Of a stretch of 64,000 nucleotides of DNA, positions 12,095 to 28,839 are shown piece after piece. The notes under the pieces are model-generated. The model had not been told where the DNA came from. It ran no database searches and was given only the letters and a program-made list of their open reading frames with translations. Source of the DNA: a virus. Location of the stretch: UHGV virus genome UHGV-0213393; one strand, written 5' to 3'. The translations under genes and the position numbers were made by a program. The first letter of the stretch is position 1; every line of letters starts with the position of its first letter.

Positions 12095-13009
12095 TTGCGA
12101 AACATGAGATTAGTCGCCTTTAAAAACATATACGTCTATCGCCTTGCCCGCGAAATAAAACTGGACTCAACCACCGTTAGTGATGCCTTAAGCCAATTCA
12201 CATTCACTCCATGCGCATCACAAGAAATGGCAAAAGTCGGATGGGTGCCGGTTCTGGCTGACAACCTGATCCATGAATACCACGGTTTTCTACTTCTCCA
12301 GCAACAGCGAGAAATTAAGCTCCTGCCCTCTCATGTCATTAAGGAGGAAGTGCAGAAAAAAGTGGAAAAGCTCGAAAATGAGCAATCTCGTAAGCTGAAG
12401 AAGTCGGAAAAAAACACCCTGAAGGATGAAGTTCTCCACTCTTTGTTGCCTCGCGCATTCACTCGCAAATCATTGTCGCGAATCCTTATTGATCGCGACA
12501 ACTATCTGGTCTTCGTAGAAGCTTCCAGCGCCAGAAAAGCAGAAGAAATGCTGGCGCTCTTACGTAAATCACTTGGCAGCCTGCCAGTGATTCCATTCAC
12601 GCCGATAGAACCGCTCGAAATGACTATGACCGAATGGTTCAAGTCAACATTTCCTCAAGGCTTTAAAGCAGGCGAAGAAGCCATATTGAAATCTCTGTTC
12701 GATGACGGCGGCGCAGTTCGTTGCAAGAAAGTAGACCTACAGTCAGAGGAAATAATGACTCATATTGAAGCCGGAAAAGTTGCAACAACAGTTGCAATCA
12801 ACTGGCAGGACCGCGCGACCTTCAGGTTAAACGATGACATGAGCATCAAAGCACTGACGTTTTGCGATGATCTCTATGACCAGAACGATGACATCGACCG
12901 TGAAGATGTTGCCCAGCGATTTGATGCTGACTTCATTCTGTTCACAAGCGAATTATCCGCGATGTTTAGCTCGCTGGTGGAGGCCATTGGCGGTGAAGCA
13001 GAGCATTAA
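12095..13009 (+). CDS. rdgC: recombination-associated protein RdgC
   Basis: Near full-length by-eye alignment to E. coli RdgC (FKNIYVYRL; LKDEVLHSLLPRAF; LALLRKSLGSLPV; DREDVAQRFDADFIL). Likely ATG start at 12104. Confidence 0.85.
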   Translation: MRNMRLVAFKNIYVYRLAREIKLDSTTVSDALSQFTFTPCASQEMAKVGWVPVLADNLIHEYHGFLLLQQQREIKLLPSHVIKEEVQKKVEKLENEQSRKLKKSEKNTLKDEVLHSLLPRAFTRKSLSRILIDRDNYLVFVEASSARKAEEMLALLRKSLGSLPVIPFTPIEPLEMTMTEWFKSTFPQGFKAGEEAILKSLFDDGGAVRCKKVDLQSEEIMTHIEAGKVATTVAINWQDRATFRLNDDMSIKALTFCDDLYDQNDDIDREDVAQRFDADFILFTSELSAMFSSLVEAIGGEAEH

Positions 13010-13052
13010 TAACCGACCGCTGGCGGTGAGTCTTTGTGATTATACAGGGAAT

Positions 13053-13673
13053 ATGGTTTCCCCCTGGCTGGAACACGGCATTGATGCAGTCATTGTCGAT
13101 CCGCAACACCAGGAGTCCGGCAGCCAATTGATGGAGTCAGGTGCTGTACTCACACGTATCAGCGCAATTATTGACAGTGATGAGGTCTACAATTTCCTTC
13201 GGAAAAATTTGCACAGAGTTGTATTTTTAGCCGGTTTCCCTCCATGTACTGACCTGGCTGTATCTGGCGCACGCTGGTTCGCAGATAAAGCGAAAAAAGA
13301 TCCGGTTTTCCAGTTCAAAGCAATGCAGGTTGTCTGGCAGTGTTACGACATTGCAAAGATGATTGGTTGCCCGTACATGATTGAAAACCCGGTCAGCCAA
13401 ATATCGACATTCTGGCGTAAACCTGATCACATATTCCATCCTTATCACTTCACTGCATATTGCAAGGAAGACAATTACACCAAAAAAACATGCCTGTGGA
13501 GCGGACAAGGATTCATCATGCCAACTCCGCGAATCGACGAGTCGTTAGGTGATCCAGACAACCGAATACACAAGGCACCGCCAGGACCTGAAAGAGCGAA
13601 TTTTCGTAGCGCGACACCTTACGGTTTTGCAAGAGCTGTATTTGAAGCAAATAAGGAGGGAATCCGTGGCTGA
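13053..13673 (+). CDS. C5-cytosine methyltransferase-like protein (catalytic motifs only)
   Basis: GFPPCTDLAVSGA resembles motif IV (PC), MIENP resembles motif VI (ENV); a motif-I-like SLCDYTGN would need a GTG start at about 12993. No obvious target-recognition domain. Confidence 0.4.
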   Translation: MVSPWLEHGIDAVIVDPQHQESGSQLMESGAVLTRISAIIDSDEVYNFLRKNLHRVVFLAGFPPCTDLAVSGARWFADKAKKDPVFQFKAMQVVWQCYDIAKMIGCPYMIENPVSQISTFWRKPDHIFHPYHFTAYCKEDNYTKKTCLWSGQGFIMPTPRIDESLGDPDNRIHKAPPGPERANFRSATPYGFARAVFEANKEGIRG

Positions 13674-14583
13674 TATTGGTGCTAAATTTATTTCTTATAG
13701 CGACAATCATCGTCCTGCGGCGGAAGCCACTATCAGCCATATGCGACGTATTCGCTCGGAGGACGAATTTGATCGCCCCGTCTTTAAGTGGGTCGGCGGC
13801 AAATTTTCTGCACTGCCCATTATCTTCGAACACCTGCCCCACGGAAAACGGTTGATAGAACCTTTCGTTGGAGGTGGCGCTGTTTTCACTAATGCCGGAT
13901 TTAAAAGCAACCTGCTGAACGATATCAATAATGACCTGATTAACTTCTATCAGACATTGCAGCGTGAAGGGCATTCTCTTATCACACTGGCATATCGTTT
14001 TTTTCAGGATTACAACTCTGCTGATGCATTTTTGAATGTTCGCAATGCATTCAACAATGGTGCTTATGATTCCCTTCACCATGCAGCGGCGTTCCTGTAT
14101 CTCAATCGTCATTGTTTTAATGGCGTCACTCGCTATAACCGTAAAGGAGAGTTCAACGTCGGATATGGAAAGCAGAAATCCCCCCACTTCCCTCTCGCGG
14201 AAATGGAGGCGTTCCTGGCTGACGATATTTCAAAGTATTCGGAATTTGTGTCCGGCGATTTTGCTGGTGTAATTGAGGCTGCAGGGAATGATGATGTGAT
14301 TTTCTGCGATCCCCCCTATGAACCATTGCCCGACACTACCGGATTTACAAATTACTCAGGGCATAGCTTTAGGTTTGAAGATCAACAACGGCTGGTGTCA
14401 CTGCTGGTGGATGCCCACAGACGCGGAGCGAAAATTGTGATAACAAACAGTGGTGCGCCTAACATTCGCGAACTTTACGTTGGCAATGGCTTCAAGGTGT
14501 ATCCTATGCCATCCCGTCGCTCTGTATCCTGTAAAGCATCAACCCGAATGATAGCTAACGACATTATAGCCACGCTCAATTAA
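13666..14583 (+). CDS. dam: Dam-family N6-adenine DNA methyltransferase
   Basis: KWVGGK, EPFVGGGAV, NDINNDLINFY, CDPPY all present and co-linear with E. coli Dam; GTG start after AAGGAGGG RBS. Confidence 0.8.
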   Translation: MADIGAKFISYSDNHRPAAEATISHMRRIRSEDEFDRPVFKWVGGKFSALPIIFEHLPHGKRLIEPFVGGGAVFTNAGFKSNLLNDINNDLINFYQTLQREGHSLITLAYRFFQDYNSADAFLNVRNAFNNGAYDSLHHAAAFLYLNRHCFNGVTRYNRKGEFNVGYGKQKSPHFPLAEMEAFLADDISKYSEFVSGDFAGVIEAAGNDDVIFCDPPYEPLPDTTGFTNYSGHSFRFEDQQRLVSLLVDAHRRGAKIVITNSGAPNIRELYVGNGFKVYPMPSRRSVSCKASTRMIANDIIATLN

Positions 14584-14584
14584 G

Positions 14585-14607
14585 AAAAGCCCCATATGGG
14601 GCTTTAT
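14585..14607 (+). terminator. rho-independent terminator after dam
   Basis: AAAAGCCCC-ATAT-GGGGCTTTT hairpin. Confidence 0.5.
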
Positions 14608-14717
14608 AACATCAAATAAACGCCATTACGGTACACTAATAACACCATTCTGGTACTAAAAAGGCATCAAGGTAGTATCAAAATACCACATGGAACCAAA
14701 ACGGTGTTATTCCGGCG

Positions 14718-15005
14718 TCATTTTGTATCCTCAGACTCTGCAAGCATGAGGATAGCATGGCGGATCATATTCAATTTGCTGCGATTATGCTTTTTGCTTA
14801 ACGCATCAAGTACCTGGTACTCGTATTCATTGAAGCCAACACGAATGGATTTAAAATCACGTGGGGCGTCCTTATCGAGCACTTTGTTGTCTTCTGGTTG
14901 CTCACCCGGCACCAAATCAGCCTTACTGGCAAAATCCTCAATTCGGCGTTCAAGATCGGGGTCTTTTACTTCGGGGGCTTTTACCGATTTACGAGGCTTA
15001 ATCAC
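14718..15005 (-). CDS. ParG-like ribbon-helix-helix partition/centromere-binding protein
   Basis: Small basic protein immediately downstream of and overlapping the ParA-type ATPase gene. Confidence 0.5.
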   Translation of the reverse strand: MIKPRKSVKAPEVKDPDLERRIEDFASKADLVPGEQPEDNKVLDKDAPRDFKSIRVGFNEYEYQVLDALSKKHNRSKLNMIRHAILMLAESEDTK

Positions 15006-15639
15006 TTAATAACTCCTTAACCAACATCTGGATTTCACCTTTAGCTTTCCCGTTGTCCATCTCAACAACGCCCTTCCCTTCAGCCATGCAATCGCGGTAA
15101 ACCTTACGATCACGAATGATGGTTTTCAGCAACTTCAGTTGCGGATATTCAGCCAGGTACTCTTTGGCCTCATTGGTTTCATTCACAACCGGATTGGATG
15201 GGGCCATTGTTAAGACTGCGAACGCCTTAATGCTAGGATTAGGCATCAGGTCCAAAGCCTCTTCAAACACTTCAACAAAGTGTGCCAGCGTGTCTAAATC
15301 TGGTTGAGATGGTCTAAATGGGACCAACACAATATCTGCAGCGGTTATGCCTGTACGCATCTCTTTGCTATCGCGCCCGGCTGTATCAACAACTACAAAT
15401 TCATAACGCTTATCCAGATCGAGAAGTGTTTCTCGAATATTACCAAACTTCTGGACACAATGAATTACAGGAGAAACCTCTGCCGTGTTACGGTCAGCTG
15501 CCCAGCGGGCAGCTGTTCCTTGCTTGTCTGCATCTAGTAACACTACATCCTTATTTTCGCGGGCAAGCTCCGCACAGATGTTTACGCTTGTGGTTGATTT
15601 TCCACAGCCACCTTTTTGGCTGACTACCAATATAATCAT
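14998..15639 (-). CDS. parA: ParA/ParF-type partition ATPase
   Basis: Deviant Walker A KGGCGKST at the N-terminus; size typical of small type-Ib ParA. Confidence 0.85.
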   Translation of the reverse strand: MIILVVSQKGGCGKSTTSVNICAELARENKDVVLLDADKQGTAARWAADRNTAEVSPVIHCVQKFGNIRETLLDLDKRYEFVVVDTAGRDSKEMRTGITAADIVLVPFRPSQPDLDTLAHFVEVFEEALDLMPNPSIKAFAVLTMAPSNPVVNETNEAKEYLAEYPQLKLLKTIIRDRKVYRDCMAEGKGVVEMDNGKAKGEIQMLVKELLSD

Positions 15640-15860
15640 ATCCGTTCCTCGGTGTTATTTTGGTATCAAACTGGTTCCAAACAGAAGCCTTATTGATGCG
15701 GTTTTGGCTCTATAGTGGAGTCACTATGCTTTGCAAAAGTATAACACTAAACACTCTAAATTTACCCTCTGTTGCATCCTGTTTAACACGAAATCAGCCT
15801 CAAAGTGGAACCAGACACAAAACAGCACCATAACAACACCGTTTTGGTACTAAAAGAACA
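15640..15860. promoter_or_regulatory. putative centromere/operator repeats for the ParA/ParG-like operon
   Basis: Repeated GGTAC/GGAACC-containing motifs; TGGTACTAAAAG also recurs at about 14650 on the other side of the operon. Confidence 0.35.
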
Positions 15861-15887
15861 CTAAATTAGAACCATAACAGTATAAAA

Positions 15888-15915
15888 AAGGCTGCAAATT
15901 GCAGCCTTTGAAGAT
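15888..15915. terminator. hairpin AAAAGGCTGCA-AATTGCAGCCTTT downstream of parR
   Basis: Inverted repeat read from sequence. Confidence 0.45.
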
Positions 15916-15924
15916 GTAGATTTG

Positions 15925-16290
15925 TTAATCAGGGAGTGAGTTTGCCAAATTCTGTGCAGAGCGGCTTTTCGAAACGCCAGGTTTTTTAACATCCGCTGAG
16001 GCTGAGGGGTTTCCTTCAGGGTTTTCCCGAACTTCAGGCGAAATTTCAAGAAATGAAACCAGCATTTTTCTGATCACTTCAGGGCTATTATCACCGGATA
16101 AAAGCGATGCCAACATGGGAGGTAATCTGCTATCAACCTCGCCAAGAGCGATACCTGCAAGCATCGCTGTGCGCGCCATATCATTGCGATCTCTTAATGG
16201 ATGGCCCTCAAGTTTTGCATCAGCATATTGCTCACTGGCGTTAAGACCAGGACGAAGATAAAACAATACTTTTCGACGTTCCTGAGACAT
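15925..16290 (-). CDS. parR: ParR-like centromere-binding adaptor
   Basis: Immediately downstream of parM; by-eye similarity to R1 ParR (RRKVLFYLRPGLNASE; RTAMLAGIAL). Confidence 0.6.
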   Translation of the reverse strand: MSQERRKVLFYLRPGLNASEQYADAKLEGHPLRDRNDMARTAMLAGIALGEVDSRLPPMLASLLSGDNSPEVIRKMLVSFLEISPEVRENPEGNPSASADVKKPGVSKSRSAQNLANSLPD

Positions 16291-16300
16291 GGCAACCTCA

Positions 16301-17260
16301 TCAACCGATAGATTTTAGACCATAGACAAGAGCAAGTTGTGGATCATCAGCAACGAAAAACCTATCGTCACGAATGTTTACCTGCTCACGGATAGCATCA
16401 GCAACAAGCGGCGCGCCGCCACCAATGACCATAACATGCGTGTATCCTTTGAAATCACTGATCACATCCAGTACGCGTGTACGGAGTCGTTCTATGCTTG
16501 ACGAAATGGCTTTCTTAACATCATCAATAGCAGACGGATCGTTAATATTGTCGGTCAAATAATCCTCATCATCACGATTAATGATTAATTGATCGACATT
16601 ATAATTAGAGGTTTCGGTATTCGCTTTTGCAAGTGCCTGTCTGACCTCTTTAGTTACCAGCGAAACGCCGAGATTAGAATCGCCAAATACGCGAGAAACG
16701 GCGGTCATTTGCCCGGCGACCATCGACACATCCAGAGTAGTCCCACCAAGATCAACAATAAGCACAGAATGCGCTGGCACAAGGCTGTCGCACAGACCGA
16801 TCCCTGCGGGTATTGACTCCGGGCGCACAGTCACTTTTTTGATAGTAAAAACCTGACCTTTGTTAAGGGTGACTGGTCGCATCAGGCTGGCCTTTTTCCG
16901 CTCAATATTTTTCATGTTGTATTGTGCGTCGTCGTCATAAAACTCTGCCAGTGGCAACGTGACAACTATTTCCACTTCTTGAGGCTCAATGCCACTTGTA
17001 AGCAGGGCATGATGAACAGCAAGCACATTAAGCGGGCTGTATTGCCATTCAACGTTATTCGTCGGCAGCACATCCGGCGAGATCAAGTCATATGAATATT
17101 TTTCGTCATCAATGATGTAGTTAAACGGCTTTCCTGCGCCAAATGTGGCGGACCATCCACGTTTAAAACTGTTCGGACAGATATGGGTTCGAGTTTCCCC
17201 GTCTTGTTCCCACAGCATTTTGATATTGGTAGAACCATCGTCGATAAAAATGCGCATCAT
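16301..17260 (-). CDS. parM: ParM actin-like plasmid segregation ATPase
   Basis: MMRIFIDDGSTNIK and NVLAVHHALLTSG match the R1 ParM N-terminal and phosphate-binding regions; start placed at the MM codons rather than the upstream track start. Confidence 0.85.
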   Translation of the reverse strand: MMRIFIDDGSTNIKMLWEQDGETRTHICPNSFKRGWSATFGAGKPFNYIIDDEKYSYDLISPDVLPTNNVEWQYSPLNVLAVHHALLTSGIEPQEVEIVVTLPLAEFYDDDAQYNMKNIERKKASLMRPVTLNKGQVFTIKKVTVRPESIPAGIGLCDSLVPAHSVLIVDLGGTTLDVSMVAGQMTAVSRVFGDSNLGVSLVTKEVRQALAKANTETSNYNVDQLIINRDDEDYLTDNINDPSAIDDVKKAISSSIERLRTRVLDVISDFKGYTHVMVIGGGAPLVADAIREQVNIRDDRFFVADDPQLALVYGLKSIG

Positions 17261-17329
17261 ATTGCTCCACTTCTGAGACACATTTGAGAAAGAATTGAAT
17301 TTTATATGAGAAAACAAAATAAGACCAGA

Positions 17330-17470
17330 AGTTAGATAGCGTAAAAAGCATCAAACTAGAGACGCAATAGAGACACAAAAGAGACTTAGATGATACATGA
17401 TGTACCCACGATACCCGTTTGAGACAAATCAGAGACAAATGTGAGAAGTAAGAAATCTGAAGAGTGAAAA
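17330..17470. repeat. parC-like centromere: about six direct 11-bp AGAGACA-type iterons upstream of parM
   Basis: AGAGACGCAAT, AGAGACACAAA, AGAGACTTAGA, TGAGACAAATC, AGAGACAAATG read from sequence. Confidence 0.5.
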
Positions 17471-17509
17471 TCACAAAGTGGAGAAGATTTAAGAAAAAGG
17501 AGGTGTTAG

Positions 17510-17794
17510 ATGAGTGCAATAGCGACCAGTGACACAGTTTGTTCTGGTCATGGAGGATTCCCTCCGCGACCTGTAGCAGAAACAGTTTCCTGGTTTACCG
17601 TAAATGGAAAGCCAGTGGTTGTAGATGGGGGAGCGTTCCCAAGCCATACAGACGGAAATAGCGCGCACCCCGGATCAGCCGTATCGACGCGCTCATGGTT
17701 TGCAATAGGCGGGAAAGGAGTTGTTTGTGTGGGAGATCCCCTTTCTTGTGGCTCAGTCATCGCCAATGGTGAAGCAATTTTTCAGGTGTCATAA
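17510..17794 (+). CDS. PAAR-like spike-tip protein (tentative)
   Basis: About 94 aa, Gly/Pro-rich with paired Cys and VGDPLSCG pattern. Confidence 0.4.
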   Translation: MSAIATSDTVCSGHGGFPPRPVAETVSWFTVNGKPVVVDGGAFPSHTDGNSAHPGSAVSTRSWFAIGGKGVVCVGDPLSCGSVIANGEAIFQVS

Positions 17795-18588
17795 TGCTTG
17801 ATTCAATCGCTGAAGTTAATGCATTCAAAATTCTAAATGCATCAGGCACAACTACGCCTGCATCTATCACGCTAAGTAAAACAGCGTCATCCAATGCCAG
17901 TTCTCTGGAAGAGAATATCCAGGCTCTTATCCTGAAGGATAAAGCATACCCGGCGTCGGTGGTTTCATGGGTCAATCAGCTTTCTGTCTTTTCAGAACAA
18001 CTGAAAACTGTCAGTGCAGAAGCAACCAATTTAGCCGACTCGCTGTCTCCGTATACTTCGCCAACTGAATTACTTCAGATGAAAATTGGCTGGGAATGTT
18101 ACGTCAAAGGTAATGAGTTATCTCCTGCGCCAGAATTTGCTCTCGTAACAGTTATGGGAGATACCCTGCATCCGCAATCGCTTATTGACGCGTTGGCAGC
18201 ATTTGAACTGGTGCCAATCACTTCAGCCATGACCGCTATAAATGCAAAAGTTCAGGCGTCAAGCGGGGAGGCTTCAGGCAACGGAAGTTCCACCGGAACA
18301 ACACAGCAACCAGCACTAACAGAAGAAGAGATCAAAGCACTAAAAGACGCTGTGGAAGCAGCAACAGAACAAATAAATGCAATAAACAACACGAGCAGTA
18401 GTCTCTCAACACTTGTACAGCAAGTTAAGGACTCTACCGGAAAAGCCAAACAGGGACTGGAGAATGCTGTAGCTATTACGTTAACCGGTTCTCTACTGGG
18501 CGATGAAGTAATGAGTCCGGCAATCAGTTTGATCATGCCACAAGGTGTGATCGATGCGCTCCAAAGCAACACTAAAAAGGAACCATAA
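17794..18588 (+). CDS. hypothetical protein
   Basis: ORF coupled to upstream stop (ATAATG). Confidence 0.45.
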   Translation: MLDSIAEVNAFKILNASGTTTPASITLSKTASSNASSLEENIQALILKDKAYPASVVSWVNQLSVFSEQLKTVSAEATNLADSLSPYTSPTELLQMKIGWECYVKGNELSPAPEFALVTVMGDTLHPQSLIDALAAFELVPITSAMTAINAKVQASSGEASGNGSSTGTTQQPALTEEEIKALKDAVEAATEQINAINNTSSSLSTLVQQVKDSTGKAKQGLENAVAITLTGSLLGDEVMSPAISLIMPQGVIDALQSNTKKEP

Positions 18589-18658
18589 CCACACCATTTA
18601 AGCCCATAAATGGTTACAAATTGGTACACATATCACACCAACAAAAAATCTGAAGAGG

Positions 18659-19117
18659 ATGGTTTTGAAAAAGATAATTTTGATAGTAGTTGCGCTTTTA
18701 GCCATTTATGGAATTTACCGTACTACGGCGGCAGTTATCGATCACATCAGGTATATCCGTTCCCTGGAAGACTCAAAATCACAACTTGAAAGCGAGAACA
18801 ACACGCTTTCTACCGCATTGCAGTTAAGTGAAAAATCGCGATCTGCCATGATGGCTGAAAACGAAAGAATTAAAACACTGGAGAAGGAGTACCAGCGCAA
18901 AACAGCAGAACTGAATACCAGCCTGATCAAACAACGGGAGGAAAGCCAGAATGAAATCAATCGTCTTGAAACTGCGTTACGCAATGCCGGGGTTAATGAT
19001 GTGCGTGTGCCTGATGACGTTATCAGGATGCAGCGGGAACGGGCAAAAGAAATCAATCAGCGTGCCAATGCAAATTACCGTAGAAGCCACCAGCAAACCG
19101 CAGGGAAATCTGATTGA
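18659..19117 (+). CDS. i-spanin (Rz-like)
   Basis: N-terminal transmembrane helix followed by a charged coiled-coil periplasmic domain. Confidence 0.5.
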   Translation: MVLKKIILIVVALLAIYGIYRTTAAVIDHIRYIRSLEDSKSQLESENNTLSTALQLSEKSRSAMMAENERIKTLEKEYQRKTAELNTSLIKQREESQNEINRLETALRNAGVNDVRVPDDVIRMQRERAKEINQRANANYRRSHQQTAGKSD

Positions 19118-19331
19118 TTATACCCCTTGCATAGTGCCAGAGGACACGCCTGTGCTGTTAAACAAGTATCCGGCATACACTGAACAGTTATTCAGCACTA
19201 TCGATGAATGCAACCAACGAAACGCACTGAATAACCAAAGGAATAGGGAGATTTGGGAAGGGAAGGGGGTTAAGGCTCCTGAAGCCAGATGTCCTGGCTG
19301 TCAGCTTCTTCGAAACCGTGACAGACGTTAA
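18984..19331 (+). CDS. o-spanin (Rz1-like) lipoprotein, start embedded in the +1 frame of the i-spanin gene
   Basis: Lipobox LMTLSGC after MPGLMMCVC; Pro-rich mature part; overlapping-gene architecture. Confidence 0.45.
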   Translation: MPGLMMCVCLMTLSGCSGNGQKKSISVPMQITVEATSKPQGNLIDYTPCIVPEDTPVLLNKYPAYTEQLFSTIDECNQRNALNNQRNREIWEGKGVKAPEARCPGCQLLRNRDRR

Positions 19332-27725: not shown

Positions 27726-27956
27726 ATGTTGACTATAGTCGAAATGGCTTACAACTAATGTTGACTGTACTCGATACCGATCACAAAACATTGACTACAC
27801 ACGACAAGAAATGAGGAAAGATTGACTATAAGCGACAAATACTCAATGAAATAGCTGGTTTATCCATTGATCATGTGAAAAAGTTAATAACTAAATCCGC
27901 CAGCATCAATGTTTGTCGCGTATAGTCAACGCTTGGAATCGCACACAGTCAATGTT
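27726..27956. repeat. incA-like iteron array downstream of repA (about six copies, both orientations)
   Basis: Units of the TGTTGACTATAGTCG type, same core as the upstream iterons. Confidence 0.55.
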
Positions 27957-28839
27957 ATGGATTTCGTTTATGGATCTGGAAACCTATTTTCCGACCATTC
28001 TTTATCTCTGAAAATTTAAGATATTCAACAGCTTCCAAGTCTTTCATGGCTTTACGAATCACACTGTTCTGAACGCTAACCGATGATTTGAGGTTCAATC
28101 TGGCGCGAAGGCGCTCAATACTCACTGGCGCAGGGTTTGAAGGTAACGCTTCGAAAAACGTATAAAGCACCTTGGCTGTCTCTTTCCTGCCAAGTTTATC
28201 GAGCATTTTGAGCTTCAATATTCGCTTATAGTCAACGTAATACAACTCAGACAACTGCTTCTGCGGTTGGATTCTTATAATGTCATTTTCAGTATCAAGT
28301 TCACTAAATGCCAATAAATTCATCTGGATATAACGAACATGTTCTTTGCTGGTGGGCAAGTTGAACTTCAGCAACGTCTGCTGAATACGCGTTAGAGAGT
28401 CGCCAATGCTCTTGCGAAAAGCCTTGGACAGCCGCTTCCTTGGATAACCGCAACGATCCACAAATTCAGAGAATGTCAGGGTGATCACACCATCATTATC
28501 TGGTTTATAGTCAAACAATGCAGATGTAATGCCTATCCACACCTTAAAATCAGTATCCATATCCAGCCGTGGCCCATGAATCTCAATACCCTGATACCCT
28601 TCCTGCTCTACAATCTTCAGGCTGGACAGTTCTTCTGTCGCATCAGTGGAGTTAGTTAAACCGGCGTTCTTGCGACGTAAAGCAACACTGGTAGATTTCA
28701 ATGTGGGAACAAACACCCCAAGCCGCAACAAAGCTATCGGCTGAATAGTGCTATTATTGTTAGGCTTTAAGCTGTGGATTTCTCCGGTATTCCCTGATAT
28801 TTCCTCAACGTTCAGAAAGCCTTTTTTGTCATCTACCAT
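27955..28839 (-). CDS. repA: RepA iteron-binding replication initiator (P1/RepFIB-type)
   Basis: Flanked by iteron arrays; N-terminal STIQPIALLRLGVFVP resembles P1 RepA as I recall it. Confidence 0.8.
   Translation of the reverse strand: MVDDKKGFLNVEEISGNTGEIHSLKPNNNSTIQPIALLRLGVFVPTLKSTSVALRRKNAGLTNSTDATEELSSLKIVEQEGYQGIEIHGPRLDMDTDFKVWIGITSALFDYKPDNDGVITLTFSEFVDRCGYPRKRLSKAFRKSIGDSLTRIQQTLLKFNLPTSKEHVRYIQMNLLAFSELDTENDIIRIQPQKQLSELYYVDYKRILKLKMLDKLGRKETAKVLYTFFEALPSNPAPVSIERLRARLNLKSSVSVQNSVIRKAMKDLEAVEYLKFSEIKNGRKIGFQIHKRNP

What the first reader, a model, noticed from the sequence alone, without database searches (positions are those of the whole stretch)
14640..17470. Two different partition systems back to back with distinct centromere-like repeats
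A ParF/ParG-like operon and a ParM/ParR operon lie adjacent on the minus strand. Upstream of parM there is an array of about six 11-bp AGAGACA-type direct repeats (parC-like). The ParF/ParG-like operon is flanked on both sides by GGTAC-containing repeats, with TGGTACTAAAAG present at about 14650 and 15840. Two segregation systems of different types on one replicon, located away from the repA replicon, is unusual and suggests modular acquisition.
Basis: partly seen in the sequence, partly recalled or inferred. Interest (0 to 1): 0.45.

Follow-up and report, generated by a model that had tools for sequence, protein, structure and literature searches.

The report
Tandem double partition locus, D6-like phage-plasmid
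This stretch of a D6-like (P1-family) plasmid prophage of E. coli carries two intact plasmid-segregation systems of different types next to each other, each with its own repeat sites; the arrangement is real but is a known and fairly common way to keep low-copy plasmids stable.

Summary
Four intact genes lie on the minus strand: parM (16301-17260), parR (15925-16290), a 213-aa ParA ATPase (14998-15639) and a 95-aa ribbon-helix-helix protein (14718-15005). A terminator separates the two operons. Upstream of parM are 10 TCTC-core iterons (6 exact GAGAC) in three clusters with exact 11-bp phasing, the densest such spot in the 64 kb. The ParA operon is flanked on both sides by degenerate TGGTRY/RYACCA boxes. 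A 16-bp element, AACACCNTTNTGGTAC, occurs 5 times against 0.24 expected, 4 of them in the flanks.

The window is a D6-like phage-plasmid. Phage D6 already has these genes annotated as StbA, StbB and "possible ParA". A 2026 survey found the RHH-type-I plus type-II combination in 971 PLSDB plasmids, and pB171 is the classic case. So "unusual" is not supported.

"Modular" is supported. The parA/RHH cassette is 99.7% identical to D6 on a backbone that is 75-83% identical, while another D6-type plasmid carries a divergent cassette. parMRC follows the backbone. Both motors are under strong purifying selection (dN/dS 0.01-0.03), so neither module looks dead.

New but small points: the RHH partner and its candidate boxes, which recur in Serratia and Thiothrix relatives. 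Interest is low.

The parts
14586..14605 (.). Palindromic G+C-rich hairpin (AAAGCCCCAT/ATGGGGCTTT). It is the likely bidirectional terminator that ends the parA-RHH operon (minus strand) and the convergent dam gene (plus strand).
14619..14711 (.). Downstream box cluster (site 1, parC2-like). It holds three copies of the 16-bp element AACACCNTTNTGGTAC (14619+, 14641+, 14693-), each an inverted pair of TGGTRY/RYACCA hexamers with a 3-bp spacer, plus the 11-mer TGGTACTAAAA at 14651. It is a candidate binding site for the RHH protein.
   Evidence: D6 has a non-alignable but box-rich region at the same place, 7 boxes per 100 bp and the top of its locus.
14718..15005 (-). 95-aa centromere-binding-protein candidate. 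The N-terminal tail carries a conserved M-x-K-x-R and I-E-x-F-A motif, and residues ~53-92 form a C-terminal ribbon-helix-helix. It starts at GTG and overlaps the parA stop by 8 nt.
   Evidence: No Pfam or NCBIfam hit. PHROG Arc-like repressor 4e-4. 101 homologues at E<=1e-3. Family members hit RHH_1, NikA and TraY. AlphaFold2 with alignment gives pLDDT 88, and the top Foldseek hits are all RHH proteins such as CopG and Arc at rmsd 1.2-1.7 A. It is syntenic with a ParA gene in Serratia, Aeromonas and Thiothrix, and tblastn hits in Acinetobacter and Moraxella plasmids also lie next to an AAA family ATPase gene.
14998..15639 (-). Type Ib ParA ATPase, 213 aa. It has the deviant Walker A motif KGGCGKS and no N-terminal DNA-binding domain.
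   Evidence: It is 43% identical to the pB171-type ParA of pCE10A and 100% identical in amino acids to D6 orf60. dN/dS is 0.025 against the L003 allele.
15650..15880 (.). Upstream box cluster (site 2, parC1/operator-like) with the probable parA promoter. About 9 TGGTRY/RYACCA boxes are present, including the full 16-bp element at 15835-15850 and TGGTACTAAAA at 15845. A conserved extended -10-like TGTTATACT lies on the minus strand at about 15747-15739.
   Evidence: Box cores (GGT/ACC) are conserved 23/24 between window and D6, against 151/207 for other positions (Fisher p=0.007). TGTTATACT is conserved in window, D6 and L003. The promoter is an inference, because the consensus scan found none.
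15887..15909 (-). Intrinsic-terminator-like hairpin with a T-run after parR. It separates the two operons.
   Evidence: It is conserved in D6 and L003.
15925..16290 (-). parR (StbB), 121 aa. It has an N-terminal RHH-type DNA-binding domain, a variable Pro/Ala-rich linker and a conserved C-terminal tail (SAQNLANSLPD), presumed to bind ParM.
   Evidence: PF10784 3e-14. pB171 ParR 2jd3 4e-7. Alignment A2. It is only 59% identical to D6 ParR.
16301..17260 (-). parM (StbA), an actin-like segregation ATPase of 318-319 aa (ATG at 17260 or 17257).
   Evidence: PF06406 2e-69 and PF21523 9e-56. R1 ParM structures 1e-110. dN/dS is 0.013 against D6 with saturated dS.
17278..17450 (-). parC-like centromere/operator. 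Ten TCTC-core iterons (consensus TTTGTCTCaaA) form three clusters with exact 11-bp phasing. The proximal pair abuts the parM ribosome-binding site.
   Evidence: The same three-cluster 11-bp layout, with core TTCTCA, is found in D6, L003 and a Klebsiella parMR locus.
18578..18640 (.). Possible third cluster of TGGTRY/RYACCA boxes, beyond the PAAR and upfB-like genes. Whether it belongs to the system is uncertain.
   Evidence: It is the densest TGGTNY spot of the window, but its sequence similarity to site 2 is within chance and D6 keeps only 3 of the 4 boxes.

Best explanation
This is the plasmid-maintenance (segregation) region of a D6-like, P1-family phage-plasmid prophage. It is a tandem double par locus made of two independent operons.

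(1) A type II ParMRC system. ParR dimers bind cooperatively to the 11-bp iterons upstream of parM and thereby also repress the operon. The ParR C-terminal tails capture the ends of ATP-ParM actin-like filaments. Filaments growing between two ParR/parC complexes push sister plasmids apart.

(2) A type Ib system. The 95-aa RHH protein binds the degenerate TGGTRY boxes that flank its own operon, upstream as operator and centromere and downstream as a second centromere, as with parC1 and parC2 of pB171. Its N-terminal tail stimulates the ATPase of nucleoid-bound ParA, so that plasmid copies are spaced evenly over the nucleoid.

Together the two give redundant, more robust inheritance of a 1-2-copy prophage.

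Shown here: gene identities, intactness, purifying selection, repeat statistics, the RHH fold, and conservation of sites. Inferred from the families: who binds what, autoregulation, and the actual stabilising activity.
For: Family assignments and intact catalytic motifs.

Two operons separated by a terminator.

Iteron array highly non-random and phased at 11 bp, with the same layout in D6, L003 and Klebsiella relatives.

RHH fold of the 95-aa protein and its fixed synteny and translational overlap with ParA across distant bacteria.

The 16-bp box element occurs 5 times against 0.24 expected, with 4 copies in the two flanks.

Box cores are preferentially conserved against D6 (p=0.007).

The composite YGGYACTAAAW occurs once on each side of the operon both in the window and in the Serratia module (ParG-like protein 47% identical), and immediately upstream of parA in Thiothrix.

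Strong purifying selection on both motors (dN/dS 0.013-0.025).

The locus is kept in about 120 plasmids and 102 E. coli genomes.

Precedent of the pB171 double par locus with parC1-parA-parB-parC2.
Against: There is no experimental binding or stability data for this element.

The RHH protein matches no curated partition family. It has no Pfam ParG hit, and its similarity to pB171 ParB is not significant (E=0.13).

The ParA scores below the NCBIfam ParA_partition cut-off, 163 against 180 bits.

The boxes are short and degenerate. The exact hexamer TGGTAC is not enriched window-wide, 22 against about 29 expected.

No consensus sigma-70 promoter was detected in either control region.

The Aeromonas relative has boxes only upstream.
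Confidence: 0.85

Rival explanations
1. The ParA/RHH pair is not a segregation system. It would be a regulatory or copy-number-control module (a CopG-like repressor, as implied by the 'cop' label used for pYU39_89) or a ParA-like ATPase with another positioning role. Only ParMRC would then partition the prophage.
For: The RHH protein's best structural matches are transcriptional repressors such as CopG and Arc. PMC6799933 lists 'cop, parA, stbB and parM'. No curated partition family matches the RHH protein.
Against: The small-ParA plus overlapping small-RHH gene pair, with repeats on both sides, is the defining layout of type Ib par loci. The ParA is 43% identical to pB171-type ParA over its full length. 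The pair travels as the only par-like genes next to replication genes in other plasmids, for example near trfA in Thiothrix. The N-terminal tail is conserved family-wide (M1, R5, F25, A29), which is not needed for a plain repressor.
Confidence: 0.08
2. One of the two modules is a decaying or redundant relic with no present function.
For: In other double-par plasmids one system can dominate (SCP1, PMC13245405).
Against: All four ORFs are intact. The motors show dN/dS of 0.013-0.025 at saturated or high dS. Both modules are retained in every D6-like relative examined.
Confidence: 0.05
3. The flanking TGGTRY/GGTAC boxes are not centromeres. They would be chance occurrences, or only an upstream operator is real, and the downstream cluster and the third cluster have no role.
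For: The boxes are degenerate and the exact TGGTAC hexamer is not enriched window-wide. The Aeromonas module lacks downstream boxes. The similarity between the third cluster and site 2 is within chance expectation, by my estimate of about 0.6 expected.
Against: The 16-bp element occurs 5 times against 0.24 expected, with 3 copies downstream. Downstream clusters recur in D6 (non-homologous sequence, 7 boxes per 100 bp), L003, Serratia and Thiothrix.
Confidence: 0.2

Closest known systems
Phage D6 orf58-orf61 (MF356679; Gilcrease & Casjens 2018) and D6-like plasmid prophages such as pYU39_89
   Same: The four genes are the same, in the same order and strand, and the flanking genes are the same (rdgC/dam on one side, PAAR/upfB-like on the other). 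ParA is 100%, the RHH protein 98% and ParM 94% identical. D6 annotates StbA, StbB and 'possible ParA'.
   Different: ParR is only 59% identical. The iteron core differs, GTCTC here against TTCTCA in D6. The parC region is essentially not alignable. D6 has a glnS gene inserted next to the RHH gene. D6 annotates the RHH gene as hypothetical, and the record shows no centromere features.
pB171 double par locus (par1 type II + par2 type Ib; Ebersbach & Gerdes 2001), seen here in pCE10A
   Same: A type II ParMR and a type Ib ParA plus ~91-95-aa CBP lie adjacent on one replicon. The ParA operon is bracketed by two repeat sites (parC1, parC2). ParA is 43% and ParM 42% identical.
   Different: pB171 operons are divergent and share the parC1 region, whereas here they are tandem on one strand with a terminator between them. 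The CBPs are not detectably related (E=0.13), and the repeats differ, TTCATA/ATCACA-type hexamers against TGGTRY.
R1/NR1 parMRC (stbAB)
   Same: An actin-like ParM (E 1e-110; about 54% identity to IncFII-type ParM). ParR is encoded downstream. 11-bp iterons in clusters lie upstream of parM.
   Different: Here there are three clusters of 3-4 iterons, rather than the two sets of five flanking the promoter that I recall for R1 parC from the literature. ParR belongs to a distinct subgroup with a conserved ...NLxxSLPD C-terminus.
TP228 parFGH
   Same: A small ParA (ParF is the best PDB match, 1.5e-18). The partner has a disordered N-terminal tail plus a C-terminal RHH. Short degenerate boxes occur in direct and inverted orientation and would serve as operator and centromere (the parH description is from the literature).
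   Different: The partner has no sequence match to Pfam ParG. The boxes are TGGTRY hexamers rather than ACTC tetramers, and sites lie on both sides of the operon.

Membership tests
Type II partition system (ParMRC) | Actin-fold ATPase ParM with both ParM/StbA domains and intact phosphate-binding motifs | tested here: met
   PF06406 2e-69 and PF21523 9e-56. R1 ParM structures 1e-110. The DDGST, DLGGTT and IGGGAP motifs are present.
Type II partition system (ParMRC) | Adaptor ParR encoded directly downstream, with an N-terminal RHH-type DNA-binding domain | tested here: met
   PF10784 3e-14. pB171 ParR N-domain structure 2jd3 4e-7.
Type II partition system (ParMRC) | parC: an array of ~11-bp iterons upstream of parM | tested here: met
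   Ten TCTC-core iterons in three clusters with exact 11-bp phasing. It is the densest GAGAC spot of the window.
Type II partition system (ParMRC) | ParR binds parC and the locus stabilises a plasmid | not testable with these tools
   This needs EMSA or footprinting and plasmid-loss assays.
Type Ib partition system (small ParA + RHH CBP) | ParA of about 200-220 aa with the deviant Walker A motif (KGGxxK[ST]) and no N-terminal HTH domain | tested here: met
   213 aa with KGGCGKS at residues 9-15. It aligns end to end with ParF, 206 aa, and with pB171-type ParA, 214 aa.
Type Ib partition system (small ParA + RHH CBP) | Small CBP gene immediately downstream with a ribbon-helix-helix fold and a flexible N-terminal tail | tested here: met
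   8-nt overlap with parA. AlphaFold2 pLDDT 88, with the top Foldseek hits all RHH proteins. Family members hit RHH Pfam models.
Type Ib partition system (small ParA + RHH CBP) | Repeated CBP-binding boxes next to the operon (centromere/operator) | tested here: inconclusive
   Statistically enriched and phylogenetically recurrent boxes lie on both sides. Binding was not tested.
Type Ib partition system (small ParA + RHH CBP) | NCBIfam NF041546 ParA_partition equivalog score at or above the cut-off | tested here: not met
   162.8 bits against a cut-off of 180. It is a family relative, not an equivalog.
ParG family (Pfam PF09274, TP228) | Sequence match to the ParG model | tested here: not met
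   No Pfam hit at E<=0.01 for the window protein, and ParG is not among the families hit by the 51 homologues. ParG 1p94 appears only as a weak structural match at rank 20.
pB171-type double par locus | Type II and type Ib loci adjacent on one replicon | tested here: met
   Compare pCE10A.
pB171-type double par locus | Divergent operons that share the parC1 control region (regulatory cross-talk) | tested here: not met
   Both operons are on the minus strand and a terminator separates them.
pB171-type double par locus | CBP homologous to pB171 ParB | tested here: not met
   BLASTP E=0.13.

The most novel reading that the evidence does not exclude
The type Ib parA/RHH cassette is a horizontally exchanged specificity or incompatibility determinant of D6-like phage-plasmids. 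It was swapped at least twice between diverged backbones while parMRC stayed vertical. Its RHH protein belongs to an uncharacterised, widely spread CBP family that recognises conserved TGGTAC-type boxes. With box clusters on both sides of its operon and possibly a third beyond parMRC (18578-18640), it might bridge sites or cross-regulate the neighbouring type II system, as pB171 ParB does.
Probability: 0.25. Interest if true: 0.4.

Novelty: new member of a known kind. Interest (0 to 1): 0.22.

Why it matters
It matters modestly. D6-like phage-plasmids occur in about 2% of complete E. coli genomes, and their stable inheritance depends on this region. Three things are gained here. The 'hypothetical' D6 orf61-type protein is identified as the RHH centromere-binding partner. 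Candidate centromeres are proposed for both systems. The type Ib cassette is shown to reassort independently of the backbone. Together these give concrete targets for stability and incompatibility experiments, and for curing or engineering these prophages. None of it changes the general picture of plasmid partition.

Tried and rejected
- Pfam and NCBIfam gave nothing for the 95-aa protein, and phmmer against PDB gave nothing.
- A single-sequence AlphaFold2 model was poor, pLDDT 55. A 51-sequence alignment was needed.
- The word-indexed protein search found only close relatives.
- The D6 genome paper, the pB171 PNAS paper and the P1 genome paper are not held. pB171 accessions are not in the collections. 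A pB171-type locus was instead found through the 2jd3 ParR sequence.
- The simple 'GGTAC' idea was tested and weakened. GGTNC and exact TGGTAC are not enriched window-wide. The signal lies in the degenerate TGGTRY box and in its 16-bp inverted-pair form.
- The strongest k-mer signals in the window flanks (ATAACA/GTGTTA) are not shared by the D6 downstream site.
- The third cluster was considered as a P1-type late promoter, but the region upstream of the capsid gene shows no similar motif. Its 16/18 match to site 2 is within chance.
- The promoter scan found no consensus promoter in either control region.
- The Rfam scan of 14300-18800 found nothing.
- L004 (pSa1423-90k) was discarded because its par genes are riddled with frameshifts, probably sequencing errors.
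- The idea that ParR/parC divergence allows co-residence with D6-type elements could not be tested. No genome among the 102 carries two loci, but fewer than one would be expected by chance.
Full report
**What is there**

The region 14586-17500 holds four intact ORFs, all on the minus strand.
- parM lies at 16301-17260. It has the StbA_N and ParM C-terminal domains, and R1 ParM structures match at 1e-110.
- parR lies at 15925-16290. It matches PF10784, and the pB171 ParR N-domain structure 2jd3 matches at 4e-7.
- A 213-aa ParA lies at 14998-15639. It has the deviant Walker A motif KGGCGKS and no N-terminal DNA-binding domain. TP228 ParF matches at 1.5e-18.
- A 95-aa ORF lies at 14718-15005. Its GTG start overlaps the parA stop by 8 nt.

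Terminator-like hairpins follow parR (15909-15887) and the 95-aa ORF (14605-14586). These are therefore two tandem operons.

**The 95-aa protein**

It has no Pfam, NCBIfam or PDB sequence match. Other evidence identifies its fold.
- It hits a PHROG of Arc-like repressors.
- An exhaustive HMMER search found 101 relatives of about 90 aa at E<=1e-3.
- In the alignment of 51 of these proteins the conserved features are an N-terminal M-x-K-x-R, an I-E-x-F-A motif and a C-terminal block K-x-I-x-V-x-F-N-E-Y-E-Y...G-R-S-K-L-N-x-I-R.
- Members hit the RHH Pfam models RHH_1, NikA-like and TraY.
- An AlphaFold2 model built with this alignment has pLDDT 88. Its best structural matches are all ribbon-helix-helix proteins: CopG, Arc and the CopA antitoxin at rmsd 1.2-1.7 A, with ParG itself further down the list.

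A disordered tail followed by an RHH, encoded just after and overlapping a small ParA, is the type Ib centromere-binding-protein architecture. By sequence, however, it is not a member of the ParG family, nor a relative of pB171 ParB (E=0.13).

**Repeats upstream of parM**

On the minus strand the TCTC core occurs 10 times between 17278 and 17484 (the most distal, at 17484, stands alone and is not counted in the mapped array). The other nine lie between 17278 and 17450 in three clusters with exact 11-bp phasing:
- 17446/17435/17424
- 17384/17373/17362
- 17311, 17289/17278

Six copies are perfect GAGAC on the plus strand, against a window-wide rate of 0.4 per kb per strand. This is the densest spot of the 64 kb. 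The same three-cluster 11-bp layout, with a slightly different core (TTCTCA), occurs in D6, in plasmid CP022228 (locus L003) and in a Klebsiella parMR locus. This is a conventional parC.

**Repeats around the ParA operon**

The underlying unit is a degenerate hexamer TGGTRY/RYACCA, often as an inverted pair with a 3-bp spacer. The 16-bp form AACACCNTTNTGGTAC (up to 2 mismatches) occurs 5 times in the window against 0.24 expected. Three copies are downstream of the RHH gene (14619, 14641, 14693) and one is upstream of parA (15835).

Several comparisons support a function for these boxes.
- Between window and D6 the upstream region is 75% identical, yet the GGT/ACC box cores are conserved 23/24 against 151/207 elsewhere (p=0.007).
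- The D6 downstream region is not alignable because D6 has a glnS insertion there, yet it is the most box-rich 100 bp of the D6 locus.
- A Serratia conjugative plasmid carries the same ParA/RHH module (ParA 69%, RHH protein 47% identical). The composite YGGYACTAAAW occurs there once on each side of the operon.
- In a Thiothrix plasmid, TTTTGGTACTAAAAAAACACC sits 29 bp upstream of parA, and further boxes lie downstream.

The RHH beta-strand (IRVxFNEYEY) is nearly invariant across these relatives. That fits a conserved recognition motif.

There are caveats. Exact TGGTAC or GGTNC alone is not enriched window-wide. The Aeromonas relative has boxes only upstream. Binding is inferred, not shown.

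**Origin and what is already known**

The window is a D6-like, P1-family phage-plasmid.
- It is 99.8% identical over this stretch to E. coli plasmid NZ_CP104667.1 (91.75 kb). That plasmid carries capsid, portal, tail and pacase genes, a RepB initiator about 10 kb from parM, and no other annotated par genes.
- In the window a Rep_3-type ORF lies at 27955-28839.
- Phage D6 (MF356679) matches the coding parts at 87.7%. It annotates orf58 as StbA, orf59 as StbB, orf60 as 'possible ParA partitioning function' and orf61 as hypothetical.
- The D6-like plasmid pYU39_89 was described as having 'cop, parA, stbB and parM' (PMC6799933).
- About 120 PLSDB plasmids and 102 of 5426 complete E. coli genomes carry the locus. 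It is always on a plasmid and never present twice in one genome.

More generally, a 2026 survey found multiple partition systems in about 19% of par-bearing plasmids. The type-I-RHH plus type-II combination occurred in 971 accessions, with pB171, pINV and R27 cited as precedents (PMC13245405). A pB171-type double locus in pCE10A has ParA 43% and ParM 42% identical to those here. It has the order parC1-parA-parB-parC2, but its operons are divergent and its hexamer repeats are unrelated. Two different par systems on one replicon is therefore not unusual.

**Modularity**

Nucleotide identity between window and D6 is mosaic.
- The backbone is 75-83% identical.
- parM is 80% identical in nucleotides and 94% in amino acids, with dS about 2.9 and dN/dS 0.013.
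- parR is 62% identical in nucleotides and 59% in amino acids.
- The parC region is essentially not alignable.
- The block at about 14745-15655, which holds parA and most of the RHH gene, is 99.6-99.7% identical, with dS 0.014.

Conversely, plasmid CP022228 (L003) has a D6-type backbone (97%) and D6-type parMR (dS 0.15). Its parA/RHH allele, however, is divergent: ParA 93% and RHH protein 77% identical, with dS 1.25 or saturated.

The type Ib cassette has therefore been exchanged at least twice among D6-like elements, while parMRC tracks the backbone. Each module also occurs alone elsewhere: parMR in Klebsiella and Providencia replicons, and parA/RHH in Serratia, Aeromonas and Thiothrix plasmids.

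The adaptors evolve much faster than the motors. The differences in ParR are concentrated in helix 1 and in the linker, while the C-terminal tail ...NLxxSLPD is conserved.

Intact ORFs and a dN/dS of 0.01-0.03 for both motors argue against either module being dead.

**Mechanism**

The following is inferred from the families.
- ParR bound to the iterons forms the partition complex and represses the operon.
- ParM filaments captured by the ParR tails push sister plasmids apart.
- The RHH protein bound at the flanking box clusters stimulates nucleoid-bound ParA through its N-terminal tail, which positions the copies evenly.
- The two systems give redundancy for a prophage kept at 1-2 copies.

Promoters were not found by the consensus scan. 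A conserved extended -10-like TGTTATACT at about 15747-15739 is my candidate for the parA promoter. Rfam finds no RNA family in 14300-18800.

**Unresolved**

A third cluster of boxes lies at 18578-18640, beyond the PAAR and upfB-like genes. It is the densest TGGTNY spot of the window and is partly kept in D6. Its similarity to site 2 is within chance, however, and I do not count it as part of the system.

**Verdict**

This is a new member, in tandem arrangement, of a known kind of double par locus. The genes are already annotated in phage D6. The small additions are the RHH partner, its candidate boxes and the cassette reassortment. Interest is low.

Noticed in passing
window 18578-18640: A third cluster of TGGTRY/RYACCA boxes (GAACCA, ACACCA, TGGTTA, TGGTAC) with the inverted repeat ACCATTTA-N6-TAAATGGT. 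It lies between the upfB-like ORF and the next gene. It is the densest TGGTNY spot of the 64 kb, but its significance is uncertain.
   Followed up: partly
window 18659-19117 (+) and 18951-19331 (+): A 152-aa ORF with an N-terminal membrane helix and a coiled coil overlaps a 126-aa ORF that has a lipoprotein signal (LSGC). Together they look like an overlapped i-spanin/o-spanin lysis pair. Neither has a Pfam hit.
   Followed up: partly
L001 (phage D6) 2069-3730, against window 14584-14717: D6 carries a glutaminyl-tRNA synthetase gene (glnS) inserted between dam and the RHH gene. The window and plasmid CP022228 lack it, so the sequence just downstream of the RHH gene is unrelated between the lineages.
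   Followed up: partly
window 17510-17794 (+) and 17794-18588 (+): A PAAR-domain protein (P1 upfC-like) and an upfB-like gene are transcribed divergently from parM. Their ribosome-binding site lies within 30 bp of the distal end of the parC region.
   Followed up: no
window 12867-13673 (+): A 268-aa ORF with no Pfam hit overlaps the end of rdgC. The D6 homologue is annotated as a putative DNA-cytosine methylase. It sits just before the Dam-type methylase at 13549-14583.
   Followed up: no
L004 (Salmonella pSa1423-90k, NZ_MK356557.1): The par genes of this D6-like plasmid are broken by many frameshifts and the region is almost unannotated. This is most likely sequencing error rather than decay.
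   Followed up: partly
E. coli complete genomes: 102 of 5426 genomes carry this double par locus. It is always on a plasmid, and no genome has two copies. 18 genomes have the window-type parR/parC allele and about 84 the D6 type.
   Followed up: partly
window 15700-15800 (minus strand): Blocks conserved between window and D6 in the parR-parA spacer are not box-like: TTTCGTGTTAAAYAGGATGCAA, ATGACTCCAYTATAGAGCC and CCGCATCAAWAAGGCT. They may be promoter or host-factor sites.
   Followed up: no
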